DNA from: Candidatus Woykebacteria bacterium
GTDB lineage: Bacteria > Patescibacteriota > Microgenomatia > Woykebacterales > RBG-16-39-9b
Assembly (NCBI GenBank): GCA_040876345.1
Contig: JBBDPM010000006.1
Span: forward strand, 456,547-520,546
DNA: 64,000 nucleotides
Reading direction: 5' to 3'
Under the pieces are notes generated by a model. That model did not search any database, was not told the DNA's origin, and saw nothing but the letters and a program-made list of their open reading frames with translations. Shown in pieces: positions 1 to 57,548 of this stretch (positions are counted from its first letter, which is position 1; each line of letters opens with the position of its first letter). A program made the translations under genes and the position numbers.

Positions 1-501
1 ATCGGCACGAAGGCCGCCAGCATACAGTATCTCCTTGGAAACAAGGGAAAGAGCCGCCTGCTGGAAGCGCTGCTCATGGCGCTCCACCTCGTTATCTACG
101 TTGTGCTGGTGCTCTATGCTCTCGGCCCGGGGCAGGCTGTGGCGTTCATCGTGGTCCATCAGGCGCTGTTTGGGCTGTACCTAGGCCTAGTCTTCGCGCC
201 TAACCACAAGGGTATGCCCCTTCTGGACGGCGATAGCCAGCTAGGCTTCCTCAGAAGCCAAGTACGGACGAGTCGAGACATCATGGCCCACCCAATCACC
301 GACTTCTGGTACGGCGGCCTCAACTACCAGATCGAGCATCACCTCTTCCCCTGGATGCCCAGAAACAAGCTGCGAGAGGCCCAAGTCATCGTCAGGGCCT
401 TTTGCGAGGAACGCTCAATCCCTTACTACGAGACGAGCGCCGCGCGGTCTCTCAAGGAGATCTACCAGTACCTACGCGATGTCAGCGCTCCGGTACGCTA
501 A
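1..501 (+). CDS. Membrane fatty-acid desaturase, C-terminal fragment (front-end type, QxxHH third His box); the frame is open from base 1, so the 5' end lies outside the window
   Basis: Frame 1 is open from position 1 and translates to ...NYQIEHHLFPWMPRN... (His box QIEHH). GC is about 62%, unlike the rest of the window. Confidence 0.6.
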   Translation: MGTKAASIQYLLGNKGKSRLLEALLMALHLVIYVVLVLYALGPGQAVAFIVVHQALFGLYLGLVFAPNHKGMPLLDGDSQLGFLRSQVRTSRDIMAHPITDFWYGGLNYQIEHHLFPWMPRNKLREAQVIVRAFCEERSIPYYETSAARSLKEIYQYLRDVSAPVR

Positions 502-680
502 GCTGCAGCCTGACTCGGAGTTGAAGAAGGGAGACCTAACAGAGATCGGCCCGCCGCGGACATGTTCCAAAGCGGGCCTCTCTCGTTCTCTCGATGTGAA
601 TACGAAAATCAGTGCAATGTGTTGACCTTAATGAAAGGTTACTTCAGTAGTAGAAGTTTCTTAGAAAAACCAAAGGTGAA

Positions 681-770
681 TGGCGGAGAGGGAGGGATTC
701 GAACCCCCGGTGACGTTGCCGCCACACTGGTTTTCAAGACCAGCACCATAATCCACTCGGTCACCTCTCC
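681..770 (-). tRNA. tRNA-Ser (anticodon UGA), long variable arm, CCA encoded
   Basis: Reverse complement reads GGAGAGGTGACCGAGTGG...CTGGTCTTGAAAACCAG...GGTTCGAATCCCTCCCTCTCCGCCA. Anticodon loop is CTTGAAA and the acceptor stem is 7 bp. Confidence 0.8.
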
Positions 771-771
771 G

Positions 772-860
772 TGGCGGAGGGTACAGGATTCGAACCTGTG
801 TGGCACTTTCGCACCAACGGTTTAGCAAACCGTCGCCTTAAACCACTCGGCCAACCCTCC
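772..860 (-). tRNA. tRNA-Ser (anticodon GCU), long variable arm, CCA encoded
   Basis: Reverse complement reads GGAGGGTTGGCCGAGTGG...ACGGTTTGCTAAACCGT...GGTTCGAATCCTGTACCCTCCGCCA. Confidence 0.8.
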
Positions 861-940
861 AAATGTGCTGGAATTGTAACAAAAAGAGCTTTTAAATTCA
901 ACGAATCAGGAAGATGTTCATTGCTACTTGCTGGGCAAAC

Positions 941-963
941 AAAAAACCCACCTTATAGGTGGG
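941..963 (-). terminator. Rho-independent terminator downstream of ssrA (minus strand)
   Basis: CCCACC / GGTGGG hairpin with a 5-nt loop, followed by a U6 run on the minus strand. Confidence 0.5.
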
Positions 964-1010
964 TATTGTTGCTTAACTTGAGGCTTCGCCTTTGGGGCGA
1001 AGCCAAAAGA

Positions 1011-1375
1011 TGGTGGAGATGCCCGGCTTTGCACCGGGGTCCGTCCAGAATAAATGGATGGGTACTACAAGCTTAGCCAGCCTTTGTGAATCCTTTAAAC
1101 CCACTGGCTGACGAGTTAAGGATTTAAAGTAGGTTATTGATGAATTCTGAATCAACCTAGGTTACCAACCTAAACTGTTCGTCTTGACTTAAGTCACACC
1201 TAAAGGGCTTCGCCAAGAGAAAGCCTCAATAGACGGTCCTATTTACGCAAACGCGTAACGGACGGCCAAATCTTTGTTGGCATTTAATATTTCTTGGAGA
1301 TTTAACGGCATCTACCAAGATTATGCCGGCTTGCACCTTACCCACATACTCTACCGTCGAAATTTAAACATCCCC
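1011..1375 (-). ncRNA. ssrA: tmRNA (SsrA), one-piece form. Predicted tag reading frame is ANKDLAVRYAFA*
   Basis: The 5' end GGGGATGTTTAAATTTCGACGG...GGTGCAAGCCGG matches the tmRNA consensus GGGG..GATTCGACGGG..AAGGTGCATGCCG. The 3' end is a T-arm-like hairpin plus CATCTCCACCA, which forms a 7-bp acceptor stem with a G3:U70 pair. Internal ORF is GCC AAC AAA GAT TTG GCC GTC CGT TAC GCG TTT GCG TAA. smpB lies immediately upstream. Confidence 0.75.
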
Positions 1376-15049: not shown

Positions 15050-16885
15050 ATGTGCCTGCCCAGGAAATTTAAAATCTTTCTTCTTGTTACAACTCTCAGC
15101 CTTTTTCTAATCAGTACTCTGACTCCAGCCTTTGCATCTCACGATAAAACCCAAGGCGCACAACAATCCCAAAACACAATCGAGCCAATTCCAACTCCGA
15201 ACCCGGACGCCCCGCAAATTCAACCGATACCAAAACCAACCGCTGATCCCAAAATCCGTCAGGCTTTAGGCTGGGAAGATTTAAATCCAATTAGTTGGCC
15301 TGGAGCAGTCTATGACTTTCTTCGTGGGGCAACCGCCAAGGCAGTAAAAGGCGCTTTTTATGCCAGTCAAGATGCGGGATTTGAACAAATCAATAATTGT
15401 TCGGGGGCTGAATTAGTTGATAGCCAACGTCTTAATAACAACGATCCAGAGGACACTTGTATCGAGAAAAAAATAAACCGCGCTGCAATGGGAGTTAGTA
15501 ATTTAAGCGAAGTGCCGAACCCAGGATTACTTGACTACCTAGGTTATGTAGGGTCTCAATCTTTAACATTACCTGTTCCCATCAATTCAACTCAATACTT
15601 CGCCTCTATTAATCCTTTTAAAGAAGCTCGTGCTGCAGCAGGGGCTGAAGAGCTAGCAAACAACAATATACTACTAAGTATTTGGCGAACGTCCAGGAAT
15701 ATTGCTTTTGCTCTCTCAGCAGCGGTTTTAATGGTTGTTGGTTTTATGATCATGTTCCGTTGGAAGCTAGACCCACGCACCACAGTTACAATTCAAAATT
15801 CACTACCTAGAGTAGTGGTGGCCTTGATTCTCATAACTTTTAGCTTCGCGATCGCTGGTCTTATGATTGATTTTACGAGATTGATCACTGAGGTTGTAAC
15901 CTCACTTGTCGCAGTGCCGGGTGAGGCTCTTTTAGGCTTGTCTGCCATTGGTTTGCTAGTACTTGCAGGTGGAAGCCTTAGCCTTGCCACCGGTGGTCTA
16001 TTCGCGTTGTTTATTCTACTTCTTGGTTTAATTTTGTCCATCATGATTCTAATCGTGTTTATTGTGCTGATCTTTAAACTGCTCATGCGCTATATAACTT
16101 TTCTAATTCTCACTATTTTTGCGCCGTTCTTTTTCTTAGCCGGCGCTTTGCCAGGAGGTGAGGGGATTATTTTTAACTGGTTCAAGCGCCAAACAGCCGC
16201 CCTTTTGGCGGTACCGTTTACCGCTCTTTTTGTGAATCTTTCATTCGCAATCGGTTTTTCTGGTTTCACCGGGCAAGGAGATTTGAATTTTCCCTCTCCC
16301 TGGCCAGTTGTGGGTGGTTTCGCTAACACTGCAGTTGGGTTTGCCGTTCTTGGCCCCTTGATAGGAATTGGCTTATTCTTTTTCGCTACAAAAGTTCCGG
16401 ACATTGTTGATGAGGTCTTTGGAATCAAAGAGCTTGGGGCTAGAAAAGGAATCGGTCCTGGAATAATAGTTGGTGCGCCTATTGGCGGTCTCCAAGCTGC
16501 GGGTAATATATCAAGGGGTGTTGAAGGTGTGCAACGTGGTGTTAAGGTTGGGAAAGATGTGGCTGGGAATTTATCCAGAAGAGGGTGGGGGCCAGAACAA
16601 ACTCAAACTGAAGGCGGTAATGTGAGCATTAGTAACCAGCCAACTCCTGGTCCAGCCGCTAGAACAGCAAGGCAGTTAGCCAGGACAATTTTGCGGCCTT
16701 TTGCTCCAAAAGATATGAGTGGTAGAAAGCCCTGGCAGAATATTTCCATGTCGGAAGCAGATTTTGCAGAACGCCAGAGGAGAATACAAGAACAAATTAA
16801 GGCGGCTGCTGCGAGAGGCCGTCGTGGAGGCGGTCCGCCTCCAACCGAAGATCAAGACGAAAGAGGCCCCCTAGAAACACCCTAG
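15050..16885 (+). CDS. Polytopic membrane protein, VirB6/TrbL-like
   Basis: Signal peptide, extracytoplasmic domain of about 170 aa, at least 6 TM helices, Gly/Pro/Arg-rich hydrophilic C-terminus. Confidence 0.5.
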   Translation: MCLPRKFKIFLLVTTLSLFLISTLTPAFASHDKTQGAQQSQNTIEPIPTPNPDAPQIQPIPKPTADPKIRQALGWEDLNPISWPGAVYDFLRGATAKAVKGAFYASQDAGFEQINNCSGAELVDSQRLNNNDPEDTCIEKKINRAAMGVSNLSEVPNPGLLDYLGYVGSQSLTLPVPINSTQYFASINPFKEARAAAGAEELANNNILLSIWRTSRNIAFALSAAVLMVVGFMIMFRWKLDPRTTVTIQNSLPRVVVALILITFSFAIAGLMIDFTRLITEVVTSLVAVPGEALLGLSAIGLLVLAGGSLSLATGGLFALFILLLGLILSIMILIVFIVLIFKLLMRYITFLILTIFAPFFFLAGALPGGEGIIFNWFKRQTAALLAVPFTALFVNLSFAIGFSGFTGQGDLNFPSPWPVVGGFANTAVGFAVLGPLIGIGLFFFATKVPDIVDEVFGIKELGARKGIGPGIIVGAPIGGLQAAGNISRGVEGVQRGVKVGKDVAGNLSRRGWGPEQTQTEGGNVSISNQPTPGPAARTARQLARTILRPFAPKDMSGRKPWQNISMSEADFAERQRRIQEQIKAAAARGRRGGGPPPTEDQDERGPLETP

Positions 16886-16937
16886 AATAAGAGAGAGGGC
16901 TGATCCGATACGATGCGGAAACAGCCCCCAATGCCTG

Positions 16938-19706
16938 TTAGGCAGCCTTGTCAGCTATGAACTTATAGAACTCCTCCTTTTCCAGTCGGGGGATGGTCCA
17001 TTTCCCGAAGTCCTCCCTGACTAATGTGTCGAAGCGCTCCTCGAGCACCTTCTCGGTCACCGTCTCCTCTTGATCGAATACTAGTGACCAATCGATCTCG
17101 GTCATTTTCGCTTCGCCAAACCTCTCCCTCAGCCCCAGGACCTTACCCTTGGACCATTCCACGGAGATCTCCGTGAGCGCGTCGAGCACCAGGAACAGAG
17201 GCATCCCGCCCTTGATCTCTGACTGGGCCGACTTAATGAGGTTTTCGATGTCGCGCAGGTAATGCGGTGTGCGTGTCCAGGAGCGTGCCCAGAACACCTG
17301 GAGGTCGATCTTCCCACACCGCCAGGCAAAGTCGTACGGGCGCTCCATGCTTTGTTGCATTTTGTGCTCGACTTCGGGGTCACCGGCCCTGTTGTACCGA
17401 ACCCCATACTGGCATTCGATCGCTACGTGGGCCGCATCTGGGAAAGTGAACCCACGCACACCCCTCTTCACCCTGGACTTGAAGACCATGTACAGGCTGA
17501 GGATGTCGTCGCAATGAGCGTGAAGCTCATCCAGTTCGTCGGCCATCGCCCAGATCACCTCAGGGGAGAGATCCTCAATCAGGCGCATGATCTTGGGCCA
17601 GACGAAGATCTCGCGGTTCTTCACAGCGCGTCGGAACACCCTGCGCAGACGCCGAAGGATCGGGCCCTTGGGCTGGTTGTTGAAGATCCGTTCCAGGACC
17701 TCCGTTTGGTGGAAGAACGTAACCTCGCGCCCACTCTTACGCGCTAGGTAGGCACTGCTGTCCTCGTCCTCCCCTGCTTCGCGGTCGAGTATGTTTTCTG
17801 GTACCACCTCCTTAACGATGGTGAACTTCGGGGTTCCATCCTCATTCTGGATGACACTAGCAACCCGGACGTATAGTTCGTTCATGATAGTGTCCGAATG
17901 GAGTCCCTTTTGGTTCTTGCCGATGTCCCGCGGGGCGATGAAGAAGAGTTCCTCCTGCTCGAGGATCTGCAACTCACCCCGTGAGTAGTTTCGCACCAGC
18001 CTAGTCTTCTCATGAAGATCTTTGCTGGTGATGATAGCACCCTCCCTAGCCGACACAATGGCACCGCGAATCATTGCGGCACCCTTGCAAACATCCTCAC
18101 GGCGACCGCCAAAGAGGCTGTAGTAAGTGCTGATCGTGTCCATCGGCGTTTCAGAGGCGTAGTTGGCAGTCGAGCGCATCATCGTGCGCCGGCGGTTCAT
18201 AGAACTCCGCCAAGCCCGCTTCTGTTCACTTGTCGCGTTCTCTGGAACTTCCCCCGGGTGTGGGTAGCGTTTGTTTAGCTCCCACCATACCCAGAAGTCG
18301 CCCCAGGTCTGCCGACTCTGACGCCCGCCCCAGTCTTCCCTCAATGCGGCAGCTACGTCTCTGGTGTCATACTCACCACCACCGTACTTCCAGACGCCGT
18401 TCCGGCTCATCCGGAAGTGGCCGTTGAAGCCGATGAGGTCGCGAATCTCCTCATAAGTCGGGTAGTCGATTAGGGAGTCGCTGACGTCCATCTTCTTGTA
18501 CCCAACCGCCCGAGGAGGACGAACTATCCAGCGGATTGAGTCCAAAGCTCGGAACCGTGCCCAAGCCCTGTCCCAGTTCGTCACTGAGCAAGTTACGTCA
18601 GCGTTCGGGCTGAACTGGTCGTACACCATGTCAAACCGGCGGGGATCCTCGACCCTCTCATCGATAAAGTCAGGGCCCCTGTCCGGTCCCCACCAGTCCA
18701 GGTGCTTCTCCAACTCGTCCATCACTTCGCCGTTTTCTGGATCCCTGCCCAGCTTGCGGCTAAGATTCTGGACTATGTGTGCCCGAAGCTTAAGCTTCCA
18801 GTCGTAGCGGCGCTGCCCGTCAAAGAACGCCCTGTCGGCGACGAGGCTCACGAAGTGAAGGAACTCGAAGTCGTTTAGGGCGCCGATTGTGACAACACGC
18901 TCCTTGGTGTTGATGTCGTAGACCGTGAGCCGATCGTACAGCTCACGGATTCCACCACGGGCTGCTCGGCGGACTGCTCGAGGAGCCTTCTCCAGACCAC
19001 CATAAGGCAGAAGCTTGTCGGGGATCACCCAGTTGGGGTTTTCCCTCTGGAACTTCCGCATCCAGTTACGCAGGAGGTGCTTGAACACGCGGGGCGTCTT
19101 GTTGAACACCTCGCGCTCTTGAGTCTCCCTCTCCTGGTGCGTGTCGTCCACCCACCAAAGAGTTTCGAACACGATGTCCTCGTTGGCAAGCAAGATCGAC
19201 CACTCGTGCTCGTTAGGCTCTTTATTAACGACAGTGGCGACGACCTCGAAGTCGACTCCCTCAACCTCCTTATCCTTCGGGGGAAGGTTGAGAGAAATTC
19301 TGCCGTCGGTGAAAACCCGGACCCTCACCCGTTTCTTGGTTTTTTTGCCTGCCTCCTCTACCGGCTTACCGTCCCCACCAATTATGAGGTCTCCCTCCCC
19401 GTCCTTCTTGTATACTTTTTCGGTTATTGCAACCCGCCGGTAGAAGTATCTCTTGAAGGCGGTGACCGGGACTAGGGTGCGGATGATTGTGTACCGCACA
19501 TCTTGGAAGTTGAAGTTGCGATGGTCCGCCTGCTTGGTACCGAGAATGCCCCAAAGCGCAGTGTCTATGGTCGCTACGAAACCGATCTGACCGTTAACGA
19601 TCTCATCAGTGCTAAACCAGCGCTTTTGCTCGGTCCAGCGCACTATACCGAACTCGTTTTCCTCCTGTTCACCGTTTTCGCCTTCCGGTTCTTCGCCGTC
19701 TAGCAT
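16938..19706 (-). CDS. Large orphan protein (922 aa) of unknown function in a GC-rich island
   Basis: Single uninterrupted ORF with an AAGGAGGT RBS 8 nt upstream of the ATG. GC is about 60% against a 40% background. The protein is Trp/Arg/Asp/Glu-rich and has no recognisable catalytic motif (no Walker A, GDD, YxDD or HUH motif seen). Reverse-strand ORFs in this span are GC-induced artefacts. Confidence 0.55.
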   Translation of the reverse strand: MLDGEEPEGENGEQEENEFGIVRWTEQKRWFSTDEIVNGQIGFVATIDTALWGILGTKQADHRNFNFQDVRYTIIRTLVPVTAFKRYFYRRVAITEKVYKKDGEGDLIIGGDGKPVEEAGKKTKKRVRVRVFTDGRISLNLPPKDKEVEGVDFEVVATVVNKEPNEHEWSILLANEDIVFETLWWVDDTHQERETQEREVFNKTPRVFKHLLRNWMRKFQRENPNWVIPDKLLPYGGLEKAPRAVRRAARGGIRELYDRLTVYDINTKERVVTIGALNDFEFLHFVSLVADRAFFDGQRRYDWKLKLRAHIVQNLSRKLGRDPENGEVMDELEKHLDWWGPDRGPDFIDERVEDPRRFDMVYDQFSPNADVTCSVTNWDRAWARFRALDSIRWIVRPPRAVGYKKMDVSDSLIDYPTYEEIRDLIGFNGHFRMSRNGVWKYGGGEYDTRDVAAALREDWGGRQSRQTWGDFWVWWELNKRYPHPGEVPENATSEQKRAWRSSMNRRRTMMRSTANYASETPMDTISTYYSLFGGRREDVCKGAAMIRGAIVSAREGAIITSKDLHEKTRLVRNYSRGELQILEQEELFFIAPRDIGKNQKGLHSDTIMNELYVRVASVIQNEDGTPKFTIVKEVVPENILDREAGEDEDSSAYLARKSGREVTFFHQTEVLERIFNNQPKGPILRRLRRVFRRAVKNREIFVWPKIMRLIEDLSPEVIWAMADELDELHAHCDDILSLYMVFKSRVKRGVRGFTFPDAAHVAIECQYGVRYNRAGDPEVEHKMQQSMERPYDFAWRCGKIDLQVFWARSWTRTPHYLRDIENLIKSAQSEIKGGMPLFLVLDALTEISVEWSKGKVLGLRERFGEAKMTEIDWSLVFDQEETVTEKVLEERFDTLVREDFGKWTIPRLEKEEFYKFIADKAA

Positions 19707-20532
19707 CGTGTAAACCTCCTTGGGTTGCTAAACCCCTCAGGCAAGAGCGCTAGCGCAACAAGACTGAGAGGACGCTGTCCAGCATACGTTCGTGAGGGTT
19801 GAAAACCCCTGAGCGGTAATACCGCTTTGGAGCCTATTCCCTGTATCACTTGGTGTATGCTAGAGCAGCAGCAACACCAAGGGGAGTTTGAATGTTAGTT
19901 CTTGGATTTAGGATCTAGGATTTTAACTTAAATCCAACATCCTGAATCTAATATCCAAAATCCCCCTGGCGTTACCCCGCTGTCTAGCGGAAACCAAGGA
20001 AGTCTTTTTGTTCGTTTTACTTAATTTTTGGCGAATCGTAATGTTATAGGTTTCCAATTCGCCTTATATTCGCTTGTTAAGGTACTCACCATCGCAAGTT
20101 TCAACTTACGAAAATGGGCTCTGACTAACGACCTTTCGTTAACCAGAGCCCACCTTCGGGGACATATGCAAAAACTCACCATGGAGGTGGCTCTGGTATA
20201 ATTAATTTCTTAATTCTAAGTTCTGCTTCGTTCATTGTTCTTAATTAACTACTTATTACTAATAACTAAGTTGCTAGTTTAGCACAAATCAGCTTCAATG
20301 TCAATCCTATAGGATCCTCGGTGATTAAATTCATTCGCTTCGCTCAAGTAATTTAGGTACTCTTGGGTTCTGCGGGCGGGCGTAGATTCTAGGTTTCTAT
20401 TCGTGTACTTTACGATACAGTATGAGTCGGTTGATTTCGAATCTACTATCGACCATAATATACCCTACAGTTTAATCAAAGGTATTTTTCGGCGAAGAAT
20501 TCTCGAAGCCAGCTGAAGGTTAATCAAACAAT

Positions 20533-36500: not shown

Positions 36501-36731
36501 ATGCCGCAAACAAAGATTAGCGATAAATACCAAGTAGTTATTCCAAAGGAGATAAGGAAAAAAGTTGGTTTAAAAGAAGGCCAAAGTCTTAACGTTTACG
36601 CGGCTGGAGACAAAATTGTACTTTCCCCTCAAAAAATTTGGCCAGATGGTTATATTGGTAGCCAGGAGGACATCTGGAAGGACGTAGATGTAGCTAAATA
36701 TCTTGCCGCCGAGAGAGATTCATGGCAGTGA
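36501..36731 (+). CDS. AbrB/MazE-fold antitoxin (VapB-like)
   Basis: SpoVT/AbrB-type swapped-hairpin sequence …YQVVIPKEIRKKVGLKEGQSLNVYAAGDKIVLSPQ…. Confidence 0.6.
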   Translation: MPQTKISDKYQVVIPKEIRKKVGLKEGQSLNVYAAGDKIVLSPQKIWPDGYIGSQEDIWKDVDVAKYLAAERDSWQ

Positions 36732-37165
36732 CAAGTGGTTTAGTCAGTGTGTTTTCTTCCCATAAGATAATTTTTATCGATACAAATGTTTTTATCTATG
36801 CTTTAGAGGATAATCCAAATTTCCCCGCAGCAAAAGAAATATTTCGCTTAATTAAAGAAAAACACAAGGAAACTTATACATCAGTAATTAGTCTACTTGA
36901 AGCTTCAGTTAAACTTTTTGACTTAGGACAAAAGGAAAAGATCGAAGAATATCTGAATTTTATTAGTGGTCATGGTCTAATACAAATTTTAGATATAAAT
37001 AAATCGGTATCTATAAAAGCAGCCGAGATCCGATCAAAATATCGATTTAAGACCCCAGATTCGATACAGTTAGCAGCTGCAATTCTTGCCAGAGCCACCC
37101 TTTTTATTACTGCAGACAGAGATTTTGTAAAGAAGGCCGAAAATTTAGAAATATTAGTTATTTAG
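36722..37165 (+). CDS. PIN-domain ribonuclease toxin (VapC-like)
   Basis: IFIDTNVFIYALED… (first acidic PIN residue), conserved D later; overlaps the antitoxin by 10 bp. Confidence 0.65.
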   Translation: MAVTSGLVSVFSSHKIIFIDTNVFIYALEDNPNFPAAKEIFRLIKEKHKETYTSVISLLEASVKLFDLGQKEKIEEYLNFISGHGLIQILDINKSVSIKAAEIRSKYRFKTPDSIQLAAAILARATLFITADRDFVKKAENLEILVI

Positions 37166-39342: not shown

Positions 39343-39972
39343 ATGGAGAAGATGAACCAAATTGAGGAATTGCCCAACCTCGATATTTTAGCCGAGGATA
39401 ATATTCGAACTCTCCATCTACCAAAAAACCGCCTCGTGAAACCTCTGGCCGTAACATTTGTGGGTATTCCTGCCGCCGGTAAGACAAGTCTTACTAATAC
39501 TCTAGCCCAAGCCCTTCCCCTTGCAGTTTTATCCGAAGAGGAGATGCTCAAGTTTCTCGCCCCACGCCTAACTTTTTTTGAAAGAGGGGAAGAGCGAATT
39601 TTGAGTCTGGCAACCAAAACAATGGAGGCTCTTATAGCGAGAGGAATAAGTTGTATATTTGATCACAATGTTAAAAAGAAAGCATACCGAGATTATATTA
39701 GGAAAGTAGTCGAAAAAGCCGCTGGTGCATCTGTCCTAGTCTATGTAGATATACCAAAAGAGGTAGCTTATAAGCAGCTTAGCGCCGCTAACTATCAAGT
39801 GAGTCGGGGTGATAAAAAAGGAGTTATTATGAACAAAGATCTTTTTGAATACGAAGTAGCCTCGACGGAAATCCCAACAACAGATGAACACCCTTTTGTC
39901 TATCAGCCCAAAAACGCAGCAAGTCTAAACAGTTTGATAGGCCAAATCTCTAAATTTGGAGGAATGGCTTAA
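39343..39972 (+). CDS. P-loop NTPase/kinase-like protein (zeta-toxin/AAA_33-like)
   Basis: Walker A GIPAAGKTS. I chose the MEKMNQ… start because the ORF-track start at 39247 overlaps the valS 5' end. Confidence 0.45.
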   Translation: MEKMNQIEELPNLDILAEDNIRTLHLPKNRLVKPLAVTFVGIPAAGKTSLTNTLAQALPLAVLSEEEMLKFLAPRLTFFERGEERILSLATKTMEALIARGISCIFDHNVKKKAYRDYIRKVVEKAAGASVLVYVDIPKEVAYKQLSAANYQVSRGDKKGVIMNKDLFEYEVASTEIPTTDEHPFVYQPKNAASLNSLIGQISKFGGMA

Positions 39973-40952
39973 ATCAGTATTCCAGGATCTGCCTTTACTT
40001 TATCCCAGCGGACGTTCTTAAAGTTAAAATAAGCAGCCGAAGCAATCATGGCGGCGTTGTCTACAGAGAGTTTTGGGTCTCCCGCTGTAATTTTTCCGGA
40101 AAATTTTTCCGCTGCCTTTTTCCTAAGCAGGTTATTAGCAGCGACCCCACCACCTAAGAGGATCTCGGAAACTTCGAACTTTTTGGCCACCTTCAAGGTT
40201 TTTATAAGAAGGGAATCAACAATTGCTTCTTGGATACTAGCGGAAAAATCAGCAACTTCCTGATGCGACTTTGGTTTGTTCTTATTAACTAAGTTAACCA
40301 CGGCAGTTTTTAGACCTGAGAAAGAAAAGTCAAAGTCGGTTGAGTCAGACAGTGGTCTTGGAAGGTTGAATTTGGTTGGGTCGCCACTTTCGGCTGCTTT
40401 TTGAATCGCAGGACCACCAGGGTATCCAAGACCCAAAAGCCTTGCGGTTTTGTCAAAGGCCTCCCCTGCAGCATCATCCCTTGTACCACCAAGCCACTTA
40501 AATTTTCCGTGGCCTTCCATAAGAACTAGCTCTGTGTGACCACCACTAACAATCAAAGCAATATTGGGAAAGGAAGGTTGCTGCTCGCCGAGCCAATTGG
40601 AGTAGATGTGGCCGATGAGGTGATTTACTGGTACTAAGGGTTTGTTCCATACATACGCGAGCGTTTTAGCAGTTTCCACCCCAATTAATAAAGATCCTAT
40701 TAGGCCGGGCCCGTAGGTGACAGCGATGGCGTCAATATTGTGATGGGTTAATCGTGATGAGTGAAACGCTTCTTCAAGAGTCGGTACCATCGCTTTTACT
40801 TGTTCCCTTGCGGCAATCTCTGGGATTATTCCGCCAGTTTTAGCGTGAATTGGTAAGGAAGAGGCAATAACGTTCACTAAGATTTTAGTGCCGTCTTCAA
40901 CAATAGCCGCCGAAGTCTCATCACAAGACGTTTCGATTCCTAAAATTCGCAT
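39969..40952 (-). CDS. tsaD: tRNA N6-adenosine threonylcarbamoyltransferase TsaD
   Basis: MRILGIETSCDETSAAIV… Kae1/TsaD N-terminus. Start set at this Met rather than the upstream ORF-track start. Confidence 0.8.
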   Translation of the reverse strand: MRILGIETSCDETSAAIVEDGTKILVNVIASSLPIHAKTGGIIPEIAAREQVKAMVPTLEEAFHSSRLTHHNIDAIAVTYGPGLIGSLLIGVETAKTLAYVWNKPLVPVNHLIGHIYSNWLGEQQPSFPNIALIVSGGHTELVLMEGHGKFKWLGGTRDDAAGEAFDKTARLLGLGYPGGPAIQKAAESGDPTKFNLPRPLSDSTDFDFSFSGLKTAVVNLVNKNKPKSHQEVADFSASIQEAIVDSLLIKTLKVAKKFEVSEILLGGGVAANNLLRKKAAEKFSGKITAGDPKLSVDNAAMIASAAYFNFKNVRWDKVKADPGILI

Positions 40953-41026
40953 GGTGTCTAAGGGAATTATACACAAAATTGAGATTAGAGACCGAGGTAG
41001 GAGTAAATTACCTATCCTATAGCAAC

Positions 41027-41055
41027 TTGACAACACTAATTGGATGTTGTACAAT
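41027..41055 (+). promoter_or_regulatory. Strong sigma70-like promoter (TTGACA-N17-TACAAT) reading into the GC-rich mini-island
   Basis: Perfect -35, 17-nt spacer, 5/6 -10; no + strand housekeeping gene lies downstream. Confidence 0.5.
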
Positions 41056-41182
41056 ACGCGTTATCTTGAAGGAGGAGGTCGCGCGTGAGACAGCGCAACA
41101 AGGACCCGGCCTAAGGGCTCAAATTGGGCTCCTGAAACAAGCTCTCGAGGGTCGAGATCTGTAACCGAAAAAGGAGGCCGTT

Positions 41183-41317
41183 ATGGACCGGCGCGACACA
41201 GGCTCCCGTAAAGGCAAGTTCAGCTCCAAGCCCTTCGCCACGCTCTCACCGGACGACGCGATCAGCGCGGCCAGCCGCGGCGACCAGTACGGCGCTGTCG
41301 ACGACGACACCTGCTGA
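41183..41317 (+). CDS. Small GC-rich ORF (44 aa) with strong Shine-Dalgarno (AAAAAGGAGG-N5-ATG)
   Basis: Hand translation MDRRDTGSRKGKFSSKPFATLSPDDAISAASRGDQYGAVDDDTC*. Preceded by a 9-codon uORF (GTG at 41075, MRQRNKDPA*) with RBS GAAGGAGGAGG. Confidence 0.3.
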   Translation: MDRRDTGSRKGKFSSKPFATLSPDDAISAASRGDQYGAVDDDTC

Positions 41318-41385
41318 TCGACGCGGCCTACGGATCTTTGACGGCGAATCCGTAGGTTAGGATCCATCAACCATCGAAGCCGTCA

Positions 41386-41455
41386 CTCGCCCGCCCTCAC
41401 CGATTTGGGCATATTCATGTTGATATGTTCACAGGTGGGGGCGGGCGTTACTCTT
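41386..41455. terminator. Long GC hairpin (CGCCCGCCCTCAC…GTGGGGGCGGGCG) plus T-run; probably a bidirectional terminator
   Basis: 13-bp imperfect inverted repeat with a loop of about 35 nt, then TTACTCTTTTT; it abuts the stop of the minus-strand NYN gene. Confidence 0.4.
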
Positions 41456-41456
41456 T

Positions 41457-42008
41457 TTAGAGTTGTTCTGGACCAAAATTGAGTTTCTTAGGAGATTGCC
41501 TTTCTTTCGCGGGGAATACATACCTTTCGTAGTTCTCATCCATATCCACAAATTCATCAACTTCCGCAAGTAACTTTGCCGAAGTACTTTTTCCAAAAGC
41601 AACGGCTTCCACTCGGTGACCTTGGTTTCTAAGATATTCTACAAGCGGAACATAGTCCCCATCGCCTGAAACTAGTATTAAAACGTCAAGGCGTGGAGCA
41701 AGACGAATCATATCCAGCGCAATTCCCACATCCCAATCACCTTTTTTTACGCCTCCGGGAAATATTTGTACTTCTTTTGATTTCACTTCGAAACCGGCTT
41801 TTTCTAAAGCGTCAAAAAATGATTGCTCTTCCGGCATAGAAGCTTTTATTACATAGGCAATAGCTCTAATTAATTGTCTGCCGGCAACTGCGGTATCTAA
41901 AATATTGCTGAAGTTGACCCTTTTCCCGTACAAATTCTTGGCAGAGTAATACATATTTTGAACATCAACAAAAACGCCTACTCTCTGATTTGGATTTTTC
42001 TTTAACAT
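41457..42008 (-). CDS. NYN/LabA-like domain protein
   Basis: VGVFVDVQNMYYSAKN…LILVSGDGDYVPLVEYLRNQGHRV. Confidence 0.7.
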   Translation of the reverse strand: MLKKNPNQRVGVFVDVQNMYYSAKNLYGKRVNFSNILDTAVAGRQLIRAIAYVIKASMPEEQSFFDALEKAGFEVKSKEVQIFPGGVKKGDWDVGIALDMIRLAPRLDVLILVSGDGDYVPLVEYLRNQGHRVEAVAFGKSTSAKLLAEVDEFVDMDENYERYVFPAKERQSPKKLNFGPEQL

Positions 42009-42042
42009 ATGAATATGATAACATTAATGGGCAAAATTACCT

Positions 42043-42927
42043 ATGAAAAAAATTACTAAGGCGATAATTCCGGCAGCAGGTTATGGCACTAGGTTCTTGC
42101 CAGTGACCAAAGCAATGCCCAAAGAAATGCTCCCAATTGTGGACAAACCAATCATCCAATACGTAGTTGAAGAGGCAGTGGCTTCTGGCATCGAAGACGT
42201 CATTATTGTTACGGGTGGTAACAAAAGAGCCATTGAGGATCATTTTGACCGCTCCCAAGAACTGGAAGAATGGCTTCGGGATGCGGGCAAAAAAGATAAG
42301 TTAGAAGAGATAATAAAAATTGCTCACATGGCCAACTTTATCTATGTTCGCCAGAAGGGCCCTTATGGCAACGCCACTCCGGTGCTTTCAGCCAAGAATT
42401 TAGTTGAAGGGGAACCTTTTGCAGTGCTTTGGGGAGACGAGTTTATTTATTCGCAGCCACCACGCCTCAAACAACTCCTTGATACTTTTGAAAAATACCA
42501 AGCCAGTGTCATAAGCGGAGTGAAAATTGAGAAAAAGGAGGATCTTGCCAAATACGGTATCGCTGATCTTGAACATGTTGAAGGCAACGTTTACAAAATA
42601 AAGAAAATCATTGAAAAACCAGATCCTGATAAGGCACCATCAGACGTTGCCACCCACGGAGCCTATGTTTTTACCCCTTCAATTTTTGAGCATCTGGAGA
42701 CGCTTGTGCCGGGTAAAGGTGGAGAGCTTTGGCTACCGGAAGCAATTGACTCTCTTATCCAGAAAGAGCCTGTCTACACGGTTATCATTGAAGGTGGGCG
42801 CTACTACGATATTGGAAACAAGCTTGGTTTTATCGAAGCTAATATTGAGTTTGCCCTGAAGAACGATGAGCTCAAGAATGATTTGAGGCTCTTTCTCAAA
42901 AAGCTTGCTGAAAACTCCCCATCTTAA
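42043..42927 (+). CDS. galU: UTP--glucose-1-phosphate uridylyltransferase
   Basis: KAIIPAAGYGTRFLPVTKAMPKEMLPIVDKPIIQY. Confidence 0.85.
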   Translation: MKKITKAIIPAAGYGTRFLPVTKAMPKEMLPIVDKPIIQYVVEEAVASGIEDVIIVTGGNKRAIEDHFDRSQELEEWLRDAGKKDKLEEIIKIAHMANFIYVRQKGPYGNATPVLSAKNLVEGEPFAVLWGDEFIYSQPPRLKQLLDTFEKYQASVISGVKIEKKEDLAKYGIADLEHVEGNVYKIKKIIEKPDPDKAPSDVATHGAYVFTPSIFEHLETLVPGKGGELWLPEAIDSLIQKEPVYTVIIEGGRYYDIGNKLGFIEANIEFALKNDELKNDLRLFLKKLAENSPS

Positions 42928-48587: not shown

Positions 48588-48790
48588 TTCCCTCAAGCCA
48601 AAATTGACTATAAGACGTATAATTGATCTAGTTTGCGTGAAAAGCTGACAAACTACGCTGGAAGAAAGCGGGAGGTCGCGCATGAACTAGCACCTAATAA
48701 TAAGAATAAATTTGCGGAAAGGAGGCCGTATCGGAGTCCAGCAACCAACGATCGGTAAGTAACAAAAGTTCATCCGAGGAGGTTTTTTCC

Positions 48791-49627
48791 ATGGCACTTG
48801 ACTTATCCGCTGTCGGTAAGGAACTACCGCCAGCCACCTACGAGTACACTGATCGAGACGTCATTCTTTATGCCCTCGGCGTCGGCGCAACGGCTCGGGA
48901 TCTGGCGTTCGTTTACGAAAGGGGTGGCCTTCTGGCGTTGCCAACGTTCGGAGTCGTTCCGGCGTTTTCGGCGCTGACGTCGTTGGGTACGGTGCTGGAG
49001 TTCAACCCGCTATCACTGCTTCATGGTGAACAGCGCATCGAACTGCACGGGCAGATCCCGACTAGTGGGGTTCTGACTACGCAAGGCAGAATCACCGGCA
49101 TTTACGACAAGAGGAGAGGCGCTTTGGTGGTGATCGATGCCGACACGAAAGACGCAGAAGGTAGGACACTGGTCACGAATAGGTTCGGCGCGTTCATCCT
49201 TGGCGAGGGCGGTTTCGGGGGAGTGCGCGATCCGAACGCCTCAAAGCAACACGTCCTACCGACTCGTCCGCCTGACTACACGATGGCGTACAAGACTTCA
49301 CAGAACCAGGCAGTACTCTACCGACTCTCCGGCGACCTTAACCCCTTGCACATCGACCCAGGGTTCGCGAAGCTCGCGGGGTTCGAGCGGCCGATTCTGC
49401 ATGGCCTCTGCACCTTCGGTCACGTGGGGTGCGCCGTGCTGCATGCCTGCTGCGGCGGAGACCCATCGCGACTCAAGATCCTTGAAGCGCGTTTCTCCGG
49501 CGAGGTTTACCCGGGCGAGACGATCATTACGGACATCTGGCAGGATGGTTCGACAGCGATTTTGCAAGCGCGAACGGAGGAGCGTGACAAAGTCGTTATT
49601 TCGAACGCCGCCGCGACGATCGCCTAA
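48791..49627 (+). CDS. MaoC-like (R)-specific enoyl-CoA hydratase/dehydratase, double hot-dog (GC-rich)
   Basis: YRLSGDLNPLHIDPGFAKLAGFERPILHG hydratase-2 motif; about 62% GC; GAGGAGG RBS. Confidence 0.7.
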   Translation: MALDLSAVGKELPPATYEYTDRDVILYALGVGATARDLAFVYERGGLLALPTFGVVPAFSALTSLGTVLEFNPLSLLHGEQRIELHGQIPTSGVLTTQGRITGIYDKRRGALVVIDADTKDAEGRTLVTNRFGAFILGEGGFGGVRDPNASKQHVLPTRPPDYTMAYKTSQNQAVLYRLSGDLNPLHIDPGFAKLAGFERPILHGLCTFGHVGCAVLHACCGGDPSRLKILEARFSGEVYPGETIITDIWQDGSTAILQARTEERDKVVISNAAATIA

Positions 49628-49754
49628 TGCTGTTCACAAAATCCCACGGGGATTACCAGAGTCACAGACTCTTGAAAAAGGAGGTGATCGGCTGAATAGC
49701 ACATAACAGTACCAAACGACTCGAGCGAGACTAGCATGAATAGGAGGCTCACCA

Positions 49755-50645
49755 ATGAACTTACTTCAGGGAAAAGTCGCCATTGTCACAGGGTCAGGTG
49801 GCGGTCTCGGTGAGCAGTACGCGCTCGCATTGGCAGGAGCTGGTGCGAGGGTGGTGGTGAACGATCCCGGCTCTGGCAGGGACGGTATAGGTGGTACCAT
49901 CACGATGGCCGACACAGTCGTGAAGAAGATAAGAGACGTCGGTGGCGAAGCTGCAGCGAACTACGATTCTGTTGCCACCATGGGAGGCGCCGAGGCCATC
50001 TTCAGCACGGCCATGGACGCCTACGGCCAGGTCGACATCCTGGTGAACAACGCCGGGATCCTCCGCGATGCGGCCTTCCACAACATGACTGAGGAAGAGT
50101 GGGACGCCGTGATAGCGGTCCACTTGAAGGGGACCTTCTGCATCACTCGCCTCGTCTTTCCTCACATGCGTGAGCGAGGGAGCGGAGTGGTCATCGGCAT
50201 CTCCTCACCCACCGGTCTCACCGGTAACTTCGGCCAGGCGAACTACGGCGCTGCCAAGGGGGGAGTCTGGGGACTCATGAATTGCCTGGCTAGGGAGGGC
50301 TATCGTAGAGGGGAGGTGGATCCCTTCGCACGCGTTTTCACTGTGGTGCCGGTGGCATTCACTCGCATGACGGCCGATCTGCCCCAGTTCAGTAGTGAGG
50401 AGGCAAAGGCCCAAACCGACCCCAAGTTCGTGGCGCCGCTGGTTGTCTACCTTGCCAGCGATTTGTCGGCAGGTATGACTGACAAGACCTTCAGCGTCAT
50501 GGGCAGCCGAATCCGGGAGATGAGGATGGTCTCCAGCCACGGCGCGACGAAGGAAGATGACGGAGGCCTCTGGAGTGCACAGGAGATCTCCAGACGAATG
50601 AGCGAGATCTTGCTCGCAGATAAAGAGGCCGCGAGCGCTGGATAA
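49755..50645 (+). CDS. SDR-family oxidoreductase (HSD17B4 / 3-hydroxyacyl-CoA dehydrogenase-like) (GC-rich)
   Basis: TGSGGGLGEQYALALAGAGARVVVND, NNAGILRD, Y…K (YGAAK). Confidence 0.8.
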   Translation: MNLLQGKVAIVTGSGGGLGEQYALALAGAGARVVVNDPGSGRDGIGGTITMADTVVKKIRDVGGEAAANYDSVATMGGAEAIFSTAMDAYGQVDILVNNAGILRDAAFHNMTEEEWDAVIAVHLKGTFCITRLVFPHMRERGSGVVIGISSPTGLTGNFGQANYGAAKGGVWGLMNCLAREGYRRGEVDPFARVFTVVPVAFTRMTADLPQFSSEEAKAQTDPKFVAPLVVYLASDLSAGMTDKTFSVMGSRIREMRMVSSHGATKEDDGGLWSAQEISRRMSEILLADKEAASAG

Positions 50646-50679
50646 CACGGAAGACAGGGGGGGGTAGCAAATCTGCTCA

Positions 50680-50712
50680 ACGCAAGGGCGAGACCACAAG
50701 TCCGCCCTTGTT
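50680..50712 (+). terminator. Hairpin (AAGGGCG…CGCCCTT) plus partial T-run closing the GC-rich island
   Basis: 7-bp GC stem, 12-nt loop, followed by GTTCCCCTTTG. Confidence 0.35.
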
Positions 50713-50717
50713 CCCCT

Positions 50718-50746
50718 TTGACAAACCTAAATTAAAGATTTACAAT
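50718..50746 (+). promoter_or_regulatory. Sigma70-like promoter (TTGACA-N17-TACAAT), 9 nt before ATG 50756
   Basis: Same architecture as the promoter at 41027. Confidence 0.45.
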
Positions 50747-57474: not shown

Positions 57475-57548
57475 TGGAGGCGCGGAGGGGATTCGAACCC
57501 CTGTGATAGGTTTTGCAGACCCATGTCTAGCCACTCGACCACCGCGCC
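57475..57548 (-). tRNA. tRNA-Cys (anticodon GCA), CCA encoded
   Basis: Reverse complement reads GGCGCGGTGGTCGAGTGGCTAGACATGGGTCTGCAAAACCTATCACAGGGGTTCGAATCCCCTCCGCGCCTCCA. Anticodon loop is CTGCAAA; a G13:A22 mismatch is typical of tRNA-Cys. Confidence 0.75.

What the first reader, a model, noticed from the sequence alone, without database searches (positions are those of the whole stretch)
41027..41456. Self-contained GC-rich mini-cassette: consensus promoter, 9-codon uORF, strongly SD-led 44-aa ORF, then a GC hairpin terminator
A perfect TTGACA-N17-TACAAT promoter fires rightward into about 390 bp of roughly 65% GC DNA. No + strand housekeeping gene lies in that direction. The GC-rich stretch contains:
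- GAAGGAGGAGG-N5-GTG AGA CAG CGC AAC AAG GAC CCG GCC TAA (9 codons);
- AAAAAGGAGG-N5-ATG, opening a 44-codon ORF (MDRRDTGSRKGKFSSKPFATLSPDDAISAASRGDQYGAVDDDTC);
- a 9-bp hairpin (CCTACGGAT…ATCCGTAGG);
- a 13-bp GC hairpin followed by a T-run.

XhoI, BglII and BamHI sites also sit inside. Composition, SD strength and codon usage all differ from the host genes. This could be a horizontally acquired small-protein or sRNA gene, or an engineered or chimeric insert.
Basis: seen in the sequence. Interest (0 to 1): 0.6.

Follow-up and report, generated by a model that had tools for sequence, protein, structure and literature searches.

The report
Fast-evolving GC-rich micro-gene cassette
The GC-rich stretch is a real, self-contained little gene (strong promoter, ribosome-binding sites, 44-codon reading frame, terminator), and related tiny-genome bacteria carry equally GC-rich versions at the same spot, so it is a lineage-specific micro-protein gene of unknown function rather than an engineered insert or a recent foreign fragment.

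Summary
The composition anomaly is significant: the unit is 0.595 GC against a background of 0.415 (z = 5), and ORF GC3 is 0.89 against 0.29-0.47 in host genes.

The contig is a Candidatus Woykebacteria (CPR) MAG. The region is identical in an independent Logan assembly and has no vector, plasmid or phage match, so it is not an artefact.

The unit lies between a NYN-domain gene and tsaD, antisense to both. Of 13 distinct syntenic relatives:
- 9 carry a comparable GC-rich unit (0.53-0.60 GC for the eight measured) at the same spot and in the same orientation;
- 2 have no spacer at all;
- 1 carries a different gene there;
- 1 was not informative.

One of the nine carriers holds a DinB_2 gene plus the small ORF.

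The units share a YRTAG-TTGACA-N17-TAnAAT promoter, an AAGGAGG-type SD, a 16-44-codon ORF, a 3' UTR of about 100-220 nt, and a CCCG...CGGG terminator. All nine ORFs tabulated show GC3 > GC1 > GC2. The body diverges faster than the flanking genes yet stays GC-rich. No Rfam, Pfam, NCBIfam, PHROG or PADLOC family matches, and no protein homologue was found.

Best reading: a strongly expressed, rapidly evolving micro-protein gene (confidence 0.5). A dual-function or non-coding RNA is the main rival.

The parts
41014..41025 (+). ATCCTATAGCAA, an imperfect copy of the palindrome ATCCTATAGGAT lying just upstream of the -35 (possible factor site or UP-like element)
   Evidence: YRTAG-N2-4-TTGACA sits at the equivalent place in 7 of the 9 related units (not checkable in L163, whose promoter is N-masked). 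A perfect palindrome precedes a second promoter at window 20299-20315 (-).
41027..41055 (+). Sigma-70-type promoter: TTGACA, N17, TACAAT
   Evidence: 11 of 12. (5 such sites against 0.2 expected; another lies just upstream of groES). The promoter is conserved in the related units.
41062..41456 (+). Predicted transcript of about 395 nt, 0.595 GC. The start is inferred from the -10 and the end from the terminator.
   Evidence: Start and end are inferred, with no expression data.
41068..41078 (+). SD1, GAAGGAGGAGG
41085..41114 (+). 9-codon upstream ORF (GTG start), VRQRNKDPA*. It carries the family motif K-D-P-A (nucleotides GACCCGG).
   Evidence: L163 has a 9-codon SD-led uORF, MLHKLGPAS*, in the same position. 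GC3 periodicity continues in this frame to about 41180 despite two stops.
41143..41157 (+). Small hairpin TCTCGA-GGG-TCGAGA between the two ORFs. It contains the XhoI site and overlaps the BglII site.
41168..41177 (+). SD2, AAAAAGGAGG, five bases before the ATG
41183..41317 (+). 44-codon ORF, MDRRDTGSRKGKFSSKPFATLSPDDAISAASRGDQYGAVDDDTC (annotated at NCBI as hypothetical protein WD231_05670)
   Evidence: GC1/2/3 = 0.59/0.57/0.89. No family or homologue. AlphaFold gave mean pLDDT 68, pTM 0.19, and one short helix at residues 23-33.
41327..41356 (+). 3' UTR hairpin with a 9-bp stem and 12-nt loop
   Evidence: Most related units fold into one or two hairpins in a 3' UTR of 104-160 nt, or 222 nt in L165 counted from its first stop.
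41388..41458 (+). Intrinsic terminator: 14-bp GC stem (one G-U), structured 32-nt loop, then TTACTCTTTTT. The T-tract overlaps the stop codon of the convergent NYN gene (41457-41459).
   Evidence: The stem base CCCG...CGGG is conserved in 10 of 10 units, with compensatory changes above it (read directly).
40953..41026 (-). Divergent tsaD upstream region, with TATAAT about 13 nt before the tsaD ATG. It is present only in genomes that carry the unit.
   Evidence: The motif ATTATAC is shared at the tsaD-proximal end of the spacers. In L006 and L168 tsaD follows NYN after 15 and 5 bp.

Best explanation
This is a lineage-specific, independently transcribed micro-gene occupying a variable 'slot' between the NYN-domain gene and tsaD in a Woykebacteria-like CPR clade.

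Proposed mechanism:
1. A near-consensus sigma-70 promoter, of the same type as the one just upstream of groES, drives an mRNA of about 395 nt. The mRNA runs antisense to the NYN-to-tsaD direction.
2. Two very strong SD sequences direct translation of a 9-codon upstream ORF and a 44-residue, acidic, largely unstructured peptide.
3. A structured 3' UTR of about 140 nt and a long GC hairpin with a T-tract end the transcript exactly at the stop codon of the convergent NYN gene.
4. The peptide is taken to be the functional product. It belongs to a very fast-evolving set of 16-44-residue peptides that share little beyond an N-proximal [RK]-D-P-[GV] motif and a C-terminal Gly-hydrophobic patch.
5. 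The GC-richness is a maintained property of the locus, not a leftover of recent import. It would be kept either by selection for a stable, structured mRNA or by GC-biased gene conversion at a recombination hotspot.

Shown: the sequence anatomy, the composition anomaly, the synteny, the presence/absence pattern, the codon periodicity, and the absence from all libraries searched.

Inferred: transcription limits, translation, that the peptide rather than the RNA is the effector, and the cause of the GC bias. The biochemical role is not known. The rapid turnover suggests a role in interaction with other organisms, but this is speculation.
For: Real DNA, not an artefact:
- It is identical in two independent assemblies, and six contigs carry the adjacent NYN protein.

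Conserved locus:
- galU, NYN, spacer, tsaD, (AAA_33), valS are syntenic in L003, L004/L174, L163, L164/165, L166/167, L170, L172, L173, L176-178 and L186.
- All except L173 carry an antisense GC-rich unit. The eight measured are 0.53-0.60 GC against 0.40-0.45 for their loci.

Shared anatomy:
- YRTAG-N2-4-TTGACA-N17-TAnAAT promoter.
- 5' end GTTATCTTGAAGG in the window against GTTTATCTGAACGG in L165 and L166.
- An AAGGAGG-type SD lies 5-9 nt before the start in eight of the nine units tabulated. L163 has a weaker AAAGGAATGAGG 12 nt upstream.
- 3' UTR 104-160 nt, or 222 nt in L165 counted from its first stop.
- Terminator base CCCG...CGGG.

Coding signature:
- GC3 > GC1 > GC2 holds in the SD-led frame of all 9 units tabulated, with GC3 0.66-0.89. 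By my own calculation, chance for GC3 being highest in 9 of 9 is about 5e-5.
- In the window the three codon positions are heterogeneous (26, 25 and 39 G+C of 44; chi-square about 12.8, p about 0.002, own calculation).
- The D-P-[GVA] motif is in frame at codons 2-9 in six reading frames from five units and the window's uORF.
- L163 and L004 share ATCGTCGAC (I-V-D) in the same frame (read).

Not a known RNA: no Rfam hit in the window or in nine related loci.

High expression is implied by the promoter class.

Fast evolution: L165 and L166 are 82-85% identical in the flanking genes but 63% across the unit. Promoter plus the first 20 transcribed bases are about 94% identical.
Against: - Peptide-level similarity between units is no better in the proposed frame than in shifted frames: 5 of 45 pairs, exactly the chance value. 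The test is confounded by composition.
- nhmmer does not connect the window's unit to any other. Homology therefore rests on position, orientation, architecture and short motifs.
- L165 carries a frameshift relative to L166 that splits the ORF into two overlapping pieces.
- The motif GAYC(C)GG also occurs at codons 2-3 of the 44-codon ORF, where it encodes D-R rather than D-P. The conserved entity might therefore be nucleic acid rather than peptide.
- The UTRs are GC-rich too, which a purely coding explanation does not require.
- No expression or proteomic data exist.
- AlphaFold gives no confident fold.
Confidence: 0.5

Rival explanations
1. The functional product is the RNA: a stable, structured small RNA of about 300-450 nt, or a dual-function RNA whose small ORFs are secondary. 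It could act by base-pairing or protein titration. It could also act simply as a strong convergent transcript that blocks read-through from NYN into tsaD.
For: - The whole transcript is GC-rich in a 0.43-GC genome, UTRs included.
- A long 3' UTR with hairpins recurs in the related units.
- The window transcript folds better than shuffles, z = -3.1.
- Peptide sequences are barely conserved, and one relative is frameshifted.
- The motif GAYC(C)GG is conserved regardless of what it encodes.
- Genomes without the unit have NYN and tsaD 5-15 bp apart as an apparent operon. The unit therefore sits where an antisense transcript would uncouple them.
Against: - No Rfam family matches.
- MFE structures of nine units share nothing except the terminator and generic 3' hairpins.
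- The reverse strand folds equally well, z = -3.8.
- A strong SD, a start codon and in-phase GC3 periodicity recur in the units, which a pure ncRNA does not need.
- With about 10 very divergent sequences, covariation cannot be assessed.
Confidence: 0.25
2. It is a decaying remnant of DNA imported from a high-GC donor, with no present function. The ORFs would be leftovers of a larger foreign operon.
For: - GC3 of 0.89 is typical of high-GC organisms.
- The same window has three larger GC-rich islands with ordinary metabolic genes: a desaturase fragment, MaoC hydratase plus SDR, and a 922-aa ORFan, with GC3 0.68-0.72.
- In L172 the small ORF follows a GC-rich DinB_2 gene in the same unit.
- The window's 5' region shows GC3 periodicity in a frame interrupted by two stops.
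Against: - No donor homologue at DNA or protein level.
- No DinB_2 remnant in any other unit.
- The unit is at the same site in genomes whose TsaD is only 65-75% identical. An import would therefore be old.
- Neutral decay in a genome with GC3 of about 0.39 should have erased both GC-richness and periodicity, yet both are kept while the sequence diverges faster than the neighbours.
- The promoter is host-type and conserved.
- No mobility genes flank the unit.
Confidence: 0.15
3. It is an assembly chimera, contamination or engineered insert.
For: - Abrupt composition change.
- Three common cloning sites.
- Textbook promoter, SD and terminator.
Against: - It is identical across both junctions in the MAG and in an independent Logan assembly.
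- Comparable units occur at the same spot in nine other metagenome-derived genomes from unrelated samples.
- No vector-like match in 72,556 plasmids or 50,697 phages.
- GGATCC also recurs in the natural relatives.
Confidence: 0.02
4. It is a precursor of a modified peptide (RiPP-like, with a short conserved N-terminus and a hypervariable remainder) or a type I toxin.
For: - Short ORF, strong SD and a hairpin after the stop.
- Conserved N-proximal motif with a variable C-terminal part.
- Rapid diversification.
Against: - No modifying enzyme, transporter or protease gene is adjacent in any of the loci. The neighbours are NYN, TsaD, an AAA_33 kinase, a GalU-like transferase and ValRS.
- No RiPP or bacteriocin model in NCBIfam or Pfam matches.
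- No transmembrane-like segment: the highest 15-residue Kyte-Doolittle mean is 1.62, and 0.33 for the window peptide.
- No antisense promoter inside the unit.
Confidence: 0.05

Closest known systems
Stand-alone small-ORF (micro-protein) genes of bacteria, for example the lineage-specific sORFs found by ribosome profiling
   Same: Monocistronic unit with its own promoter, strong SD, an ORF under 50 codons and an intrinsic terminator. It has no detectable homologues and is annotated only as hypothetical.
   Different: The unit is 15-18 GC points richer than its genome, and this excess is conserved across relatives. The sequence turns over faster than the neighbouring genes. The 3' UTR is about as long as the ORF. 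A second, 9-codon SD-led ORF precedes the main one.
Dual-function sRNAs (SgrS/SgrT, RNAIII/delta-haemolysin, SR1/SR1P; from general knowledge)
   Same: A structured RNA of a few hundred nucleotides that also carries a translated small ORF. The peptide is poorly conserved relative to the architecture.
   Different: No base-pairing target or conserved seed could be identified. No conserved secondary structure was found beyond the terminator. No Rfam family matches.
RiPP precursor genes (lanA-type)
   Same: Short, highly expressed ORF followed by a stable hairpin, with a conserved N-terminal part and a hypervariable remainder.
   Different: No biosynthetic genes nearby. The conserved part is only about 4 residues. 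No precursor-family model matches.
Genomic islands or horizontally transferred cassettes at integration hotspots
   Same: Atypical composition. Presence/absence polymorphism at one intergenic site. Variable cargo: DinB_2 in L172, a 196-aa secreted protein in L173, and a further 680-bp insert flanked by a 38-bp direct repeat in L004.
   Different: No integrase, transposase or attC-like site. The promoter and terminator are conserved with the host clade. No donor was found.

Membership tests
Any described RNA family (Rfam 15) | Match to a covariance model at or near its gathering score | tested here: not met
   (gathering threshold, whole window: only tmRNA and tRNAs elsewhere). (E-value mode on 40950-41500: only hairpin-type chance hits, 25 bits or less against gathering scores of 45 bits or more, 82 for the best hit). 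(nine related loci: nothing in the units).
Any described protein family (Pfam-A, NCBIfam, PHROGs, PADLOC) | Profile match of the 44-aa product or of the related peptides | tested here: not met
   zero families, even at E-value thresholds of 1 to 10.
Recently horizontally acquired island | Atypical base composition and codon usage | tested here: met
   (z = 5.0; GC3 0.89 against 0.29-0.47).
Recently horizontally acquired island | Absent from the same site in related genomes | tested here: not met
   Nine of 13 distinct syntenic relatives carry a comparable unit at the same site. Two lack it (L006, L168).
Recently horizontally acquired island | Identifiable donor-lineage homologue or flanking mobility genes or repeats | tested here: not met
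   (no homologue). (no integrase or transposase among the neighbours).
Type I toxin-antitoxin | Hydrophobic, membrane-spanning toxin peptide | tested here: not met
   GRAVY -0.97 and highest 15-residue hydropathy 0.33 for the window peptide. No relative exceeds 1.62.
Type I toxin-antitoxin | Overlapping or adjacent antisense sRNA with its own promoter | tested here: not met
   no promoter-like site on the minus strand within 41027-41460.
RiPP precursor | Adjacent modifying enzyme, protease or transporter genes | tested here: not met
   the neighbours are NYN, TsaD, AAA_33 kinase, GalU-like transferase, SBP, GroES/EL and ValRS.
RiPP precursor | Conserved leader with hypervariable core | tested here: inconclusive
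   only a motif of about 4 residues ([RK]-D-P-[GV]) and one Gly column are shared. One search shows no frame-specific similarity.
Leader-peptide attenuator or regulatory uORF | A regulated structural gene downstream on the same strand | tested here: not met
   the terminator is followed directly by the convergent NYN gene. The next + strand gene starts at 42043, beyond it.
Integron gene cassette | attC site (R''/L''...L'/R' with GTTRRRY) and a nearby integrase | tested here: not met
   Read: the 3' hairpin ends GCGTTACTC, which does not fit GTTRRRY. There is no integrase in the loci. No dedicated attC model was run.
Dual-function sRNA | Conserved secondary structure or seed region in addition to a translated sORF | tested here: inconclusive
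   no shared fold beyond the terminator. About 10 highly divergent sequences are too few for covariation analysis.
Translated small-protein gene | SD, start codon and three-base compositional periodicity in phase, conserved across relatives | tested here: met
   GC3 > GC1 > GC2 in all nine tabulated units. Eight have an AAGGAGG-type SD 5-9 nt from the start, and L163's SD is weaker and farther.
Translated small-protein gene | Direct evidence of translation (Ribo-seq or peptides) | not testable with these tools
   No expression data are available for this uncultured organism.

The most novel reading that the evidence does not exclude
The NYN-tsaD spacer of this CPR clade is a dedicated 'expression slot'. 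It is a conserved strong promoter and terminator pair that takes up foreign or newly arisen GC-rich coding sequence: micro-peptides, DinB_2, a secreted protein, or a second promoter-to-terminator unit. Its contents are exchanged by recombination so often that GC-biased gene conversion, or selection for RNA stability, keeps them 15-18 GC points above the genome. The micro-peptides would then be rapidly diversifying effectors in the symbiont's dealings with its host or its phages.
Probability: 0.12. Interest if true: 0.7.

Novelty: new member of a known kind. Interest (0 to 1): 0.4.

Why it matters
CPR bacteria have very small genomes in which most intergenic DNA is short and AT-rich. A strongly promoted unit that stays GC-rich while its sequence turns over faster than the neighbouring essential genes is unusual there. 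It is a concrete candidate for an undescribed micro-protein, or a dual-function RNA, in an uncultured lineage.

It also offers a natural test of what maintains local GC content in a reduced genome. The candidates are selection on RNA structure, biased gene conversion at a recombination hotspot, and repeated import.

For annotation practice, it shows that a 'foreign-looking' island need not be recent or artefactual. The practical importance is modest until a function is shown.

Tried and rejected
- Rfam at gathering and at permissive thresholds, on the window and on nine related loci: nothing.
- BLASTN of the region against plasmids and phages: only two 50-nt, E = 3e-3 hits to a Streptantibioticus megaplasmid, treated as chance.
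- Protein searches with the 44-aa product (word-indexed and exhaustive phmmer) and with an 8-peptide profile: only the protein itself, plus two low-complexity hits at 1e-4.
- nhmmer of each related unit against the window: no hit. Homology could not be shown by alignment statistics.
- Frame-specific amino-acid similarity test: the true frame was best in 5 of 45 pairs, exactly chance. Shifted frames score higher because of Arg/Pro/Ala-rich low complexity, so the test is uninformative and gives no support.
- Idea that the window's 5' region is a remnant of the DinB_2 gene seen in L172: tblastn gave nothing better than E = 5.9. A short block around the upstream stop codon aligns between the window, L163 and L172, but this is weak.
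- Apparent paralogy between the 5' UTR and the leader of the GC-rich MaoC/SDR operon (GGAGGTCGCGCRTGA and AAAGGAGGCCGT in the same order at 48671 and 48718): local-alignment z = 3.6, rank 2 of 1260 windows. This is not significant.
- Metagenome scan with TsaD gave only distant relatives (58% or less) without NYN synteny. The viral-contig scan was likewise uninformative.
- The antisense 83-aa ORF 41119-41370 was considered as the real gene. It has no SD, shares third positions with the sense ORF (a typical shadow frame), and has no counterpart in L166, where the longest antisense ORF is 15 aa.
- Scan of 1.1 Mb of fetched CPR and DPANN loci for further SD-led, GC3-rich small ORFs: none outside the NYN-tsaD spacer.
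- Literature searches for Woykebacteria, and for Patescibacteria with small proteins and GC content: nothing relevant.
Full report
**Observation**

- A TTGACA-N17-TACAAT promoter. It scores 11 of 12 and is the best site in 40000-42500.
- GAAGGAGGAGG, six bases, then a GTG-initiated 9-codon ORF at 41085-41114.
- AAAAAGGAGG, five bases, then the 44-codon ORF at 41183-41317.
- A 9-bp hairpin at 41327-41356.
- A 14-bp GC stem (41388-41401 with 41434-41447, one G-U pair) followed by TTACTCTTTTT.

The T-tract overlaps the stop codon of the convergent NYN-domain gene (41457-42008, minus strand). On the other side, tsaD (39969-40952, minus strand) starts 74 bp from the -35 and points away. Pfam confirms both neighbours.

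**Is the composition really different?**

GC peaks at 0.625-0.64 in 200-nt windows. The predicted transcript is 0.595 GC. Against the window without its three large GC-rich islands, this is z = 5.0, and no ordinary 395-nt window exceeds 0.554.

Forty-six ordinary genes have GC3 of 0.29-0.47. The 44-codon ORF has 0.89 and the 9-codon ORF 0.89. The compositional claim therefore survives a proper test.

The ORF length itself is not remarkable in DNA this GC-rich, and the restriction sites carry no weight.

**Artefact or engineered insert?**

The source is a 586-kb contig of a Candidatus Woykebacteria MAG (GCA_040881185.1). An independent Logan assembly of SRR27977661 gives the identical 517 bases across both junctions.

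The plasmid collection (72,556 records) gave only two 50-nt chance-level hits, and the phage collection (50,697 records) gave none. I reject the artefact and engineered readings.

**Known RNA or protein?**

No Rfam family matches at gathering or permissive thresholds. No Pfam, NCBIfam, PHROG or PADLOC family matches.

No homologue was found among 5.8 billion proteins or 1.84 billion cluster representatives. AlphaFold without an alignment gives a low-confidence coil with one short helix (pLDDT 68, pTM 0.19).

**The decisive evidence came from relatives**

The order galU, NYN, tsaD, (AAA_33 kinase), valS is conserved in a clade whose TsaD is 60-75% identical to the window's. The NYN-tsaD spacer varies as follows.

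| Loci | What lies between NYN and tsaD |
|---|---|
| L006, L168/L169 | Nothing: tsaD follows NYN after 15 or 5 bp, an apparent operon |
| L003, L004=L174, L163, L164=L165, L166=L167, L170, L172, L176-178, L186 | 440-1200 bp holding a GC-rich unit on the opposite strand, as in the window |
| L172 | The unit also carries a GC-rich DinB_2 gene upstream of the small ORF |
| L173 | A 196-aa secreted-type protein instead |
| L166, L186 | A second promoter-to-terminator unit in tandem |
| L004 | A further 680-bp insert flanked by a 38-bp duplication of the NYN 3' end |

The spacer is therefore a variable slot, and the window's cassette is one occupant type that is widespread in the clade.

**Shared anatomy of the units**

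1. A YRTAG-N2-4-TTGACA-N17-TAnAAT promoter in 7 of the 9 other units. One further unit (L163) could not be checked because its promoter is masked by Ns. The loose motif has a background of about 0.5 per 64 kb, so finding it at exactly the homologous position is not chance.
2. A similar 5' end: GTTATCTTGAAGG in the window, GTTTATCTGAACGG in L165 and L166.
3. An AAGGAGG-type SD 5-9 nt before the start in eight of the nine units tabulated. L163's SD is weaker.
4. An ORF of 16-44 codons.
5. A 3' UTR of 104-160 nt with one or two hairpins, or 222 nt in L165 counted from its first stop.
6. A long terminator hairpin whose base is CCCG...CGGG in 10 of 10 units, with compensatory changes above it.

The eight other units measured are 0.53-0.60 GC in loci of 0.40-0.45.

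**Coding or not?**

Evidence for coding:
- In all nine units tabulated, the SD-led frame shows GC3 > GC1 > GC2, with GC3 0.66-0.89. This is the standard coding periodicity, in phase with a conserved SD and start.
- The motif [RK]-D-P-[GV] (nucleotides GAYCCGG) lies in frame at codons 2-9 in six reading frames, including the window's 9-codon ORF. One Gly near the C-terminus aligns in all eight longer peptides.

Evidence against coding:
- Pairwise amino-acid similarity is not higher in the proposed frame than in shifted frames: 5 of 45 pairs, the chance value. The test is confounded by composition.
- nhmmer cannot link the window's unit to the others.
- L165 is frameshifted relative to L166.
- GAYC(C)GG also occurs where it encodes D-R.

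I conclude that translation is likely but the peptide is under weak or diversifying constraint. An RNA-level function cannot be excluded.

**Evolutionary behaviour**

L165 and L166 are 82-85% identical in tsaD and NYN DNA but only 63% across the unit. The promoter and first 20 transcribed bases are about 94% identical.

The body therefore changes faster than the neighbours and nevertheless remains GC-rich and periodic. That is hard to reconcile with neutral decay of an old import in a genome whose GC3 is about 0.39.

It points to a force that maintains GC. The candidates are selection on mRNA structure or stability, GC-biased gene conversion at a recombination hotspot, or repeated replacement from an unseen GC-rich pool. 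I could not discriminate between these.

**Mechanism proposed**

- A promoter of the same type as the one just upstream of groES makes an mRNA of about 395 nt.
- The 9-codon and 44-codon ORFs are translated from very strong SDs.
- The structured 3' UTR and terminator stabilise and end the RNA at the NYN stop codon.
- Because the unit is convergent with NYN and sits where relatives have an operon junction, it also necessarily separates NYN and tsaD transcription. The tsaD-proximal end of the spacers shares a TATAAT-type element (ATTATAC on the strand shown), which is consistent with tsaD having acquired its own promoter.
- The biochemical role of the peptide is unknown.

**Comparison with known kinds**

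It works like a stand-alone micro-protein gene or a dual-function sRNA.

It is not a member of any described family.
- Type I toxin: no hydrophobic segment and no antisense promoter.
- RiPP precursor: no enzymes nearby in any locus and no precursor model hit.
- Leader-peptide attenuator: no downstream gene.
- Integron cassette: no attC fit and no integrase.
- Recent HGT island: composition fits, but it is present in relatives and no donor was found.

**Verdict**

The feature is a new, lineage-specific member of the small-ORF gene kind, with an unusual, conserved GC excess and fast turnover. Interest is moderate (0.4).

Noticed in passing
window 1-800, 16800-19700, 48790-50720: Three larger GC-rich islands (0.54-0.61 GC) in a 0.43-GC genome: a fatty-acid desaturase fragment (76-501 +), a 922-aa ORF with no Pfam, PADLOC or PDB match (16938-19706 -, GC3 0.72), and a MaoC-type hydratase plus short-chain dehydrogenase pair (48791-49627 and 49755-50645 +, GC3 0.68 and 0.72). 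They look like imported lipid-metabolism genes.
   Followed up: partly
window 20299-20315 (-): A perfect palindrome ATCCTATAGGAT abuts TTGACA-N17-TAAACT. This is the same promoter motif as the finding. It points into a leader of about 580 nt with hairpins (20270 down to 19707) ahead of the GC-rich 922-aa ORF. This could be a shared regulator site or an unrecognised leader RNA.
   Followed up: partly
window 48671-48729: The leader of the MaoC/SDR operon contains GGAGGTCGCGCATGA and AAAGGAGGCCGT, in the same order as in the finding's 5' region. The similarity ranks 2nd of 1260 windows (z = 3.6), so it is not significant on its own.
   Followed up: yes
L166 2500-2930 (-) and L186 2150-2460 (-): A second promoter-to-terminator unit of about 300-400 nt lies between tsaD and the micro-ORF unit. 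It has its own promoter (AAAAACTTGACAAGG), its own terminator and no convincing ORF. The two copies share only the promoter. Candidate sRNA; no Rfam hit in L166 (L186 was not scanned).
   Followed up: partly
L004 4530-4575 and 5215-5260 (same in L174): A 38-bp direct repeat duplicating the NYN 3' end flanks a 680-bp insert that encodes a small membrane-type ORF. This is evidence that the site takes up DNA by a duplicative mechanism.
   Followed up: no
L172 657-1187 (-) and L173 1783-2373 (-): Other cargo occupies the same slot: a GC-rich DinB_2-family gene co-oriented with the small ORF in L172, and a 196-aa protein with an N-terminal signal or lipobox-like sequence in L173.
   Followed up: partly
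window 681-1375 (-): A tmRNA gene (tag ANKDLAVRYAFA) lies next to two tRNA-Ser genes. A tRNA-Cys gene is at 57475-57548 (-).
   Followed up: no
window 36461, 44333, 50718 (+) and 57469 (-): Exact TTGACA-N16-18-TAnAAT promoters occur 5 times against 0.2 expected by chance. One lies just upstream of groES and one just upstream of a MazE/PIN toxin-antitoxin pair (36501-37165). This CPR organism apparently uses canonical sigma-70 promoters for strongly expressed units.
   Followed up: no
L003-L082: The NYN-domain protein is 57-72% identical across many CPR bacteria and DPANN archaea (Woesearchaeota, Nanoarchaeota). This is much more conserved across domains than TsaD and suggests inter-domain transfer among ultra-small cells.
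   Followed up: no
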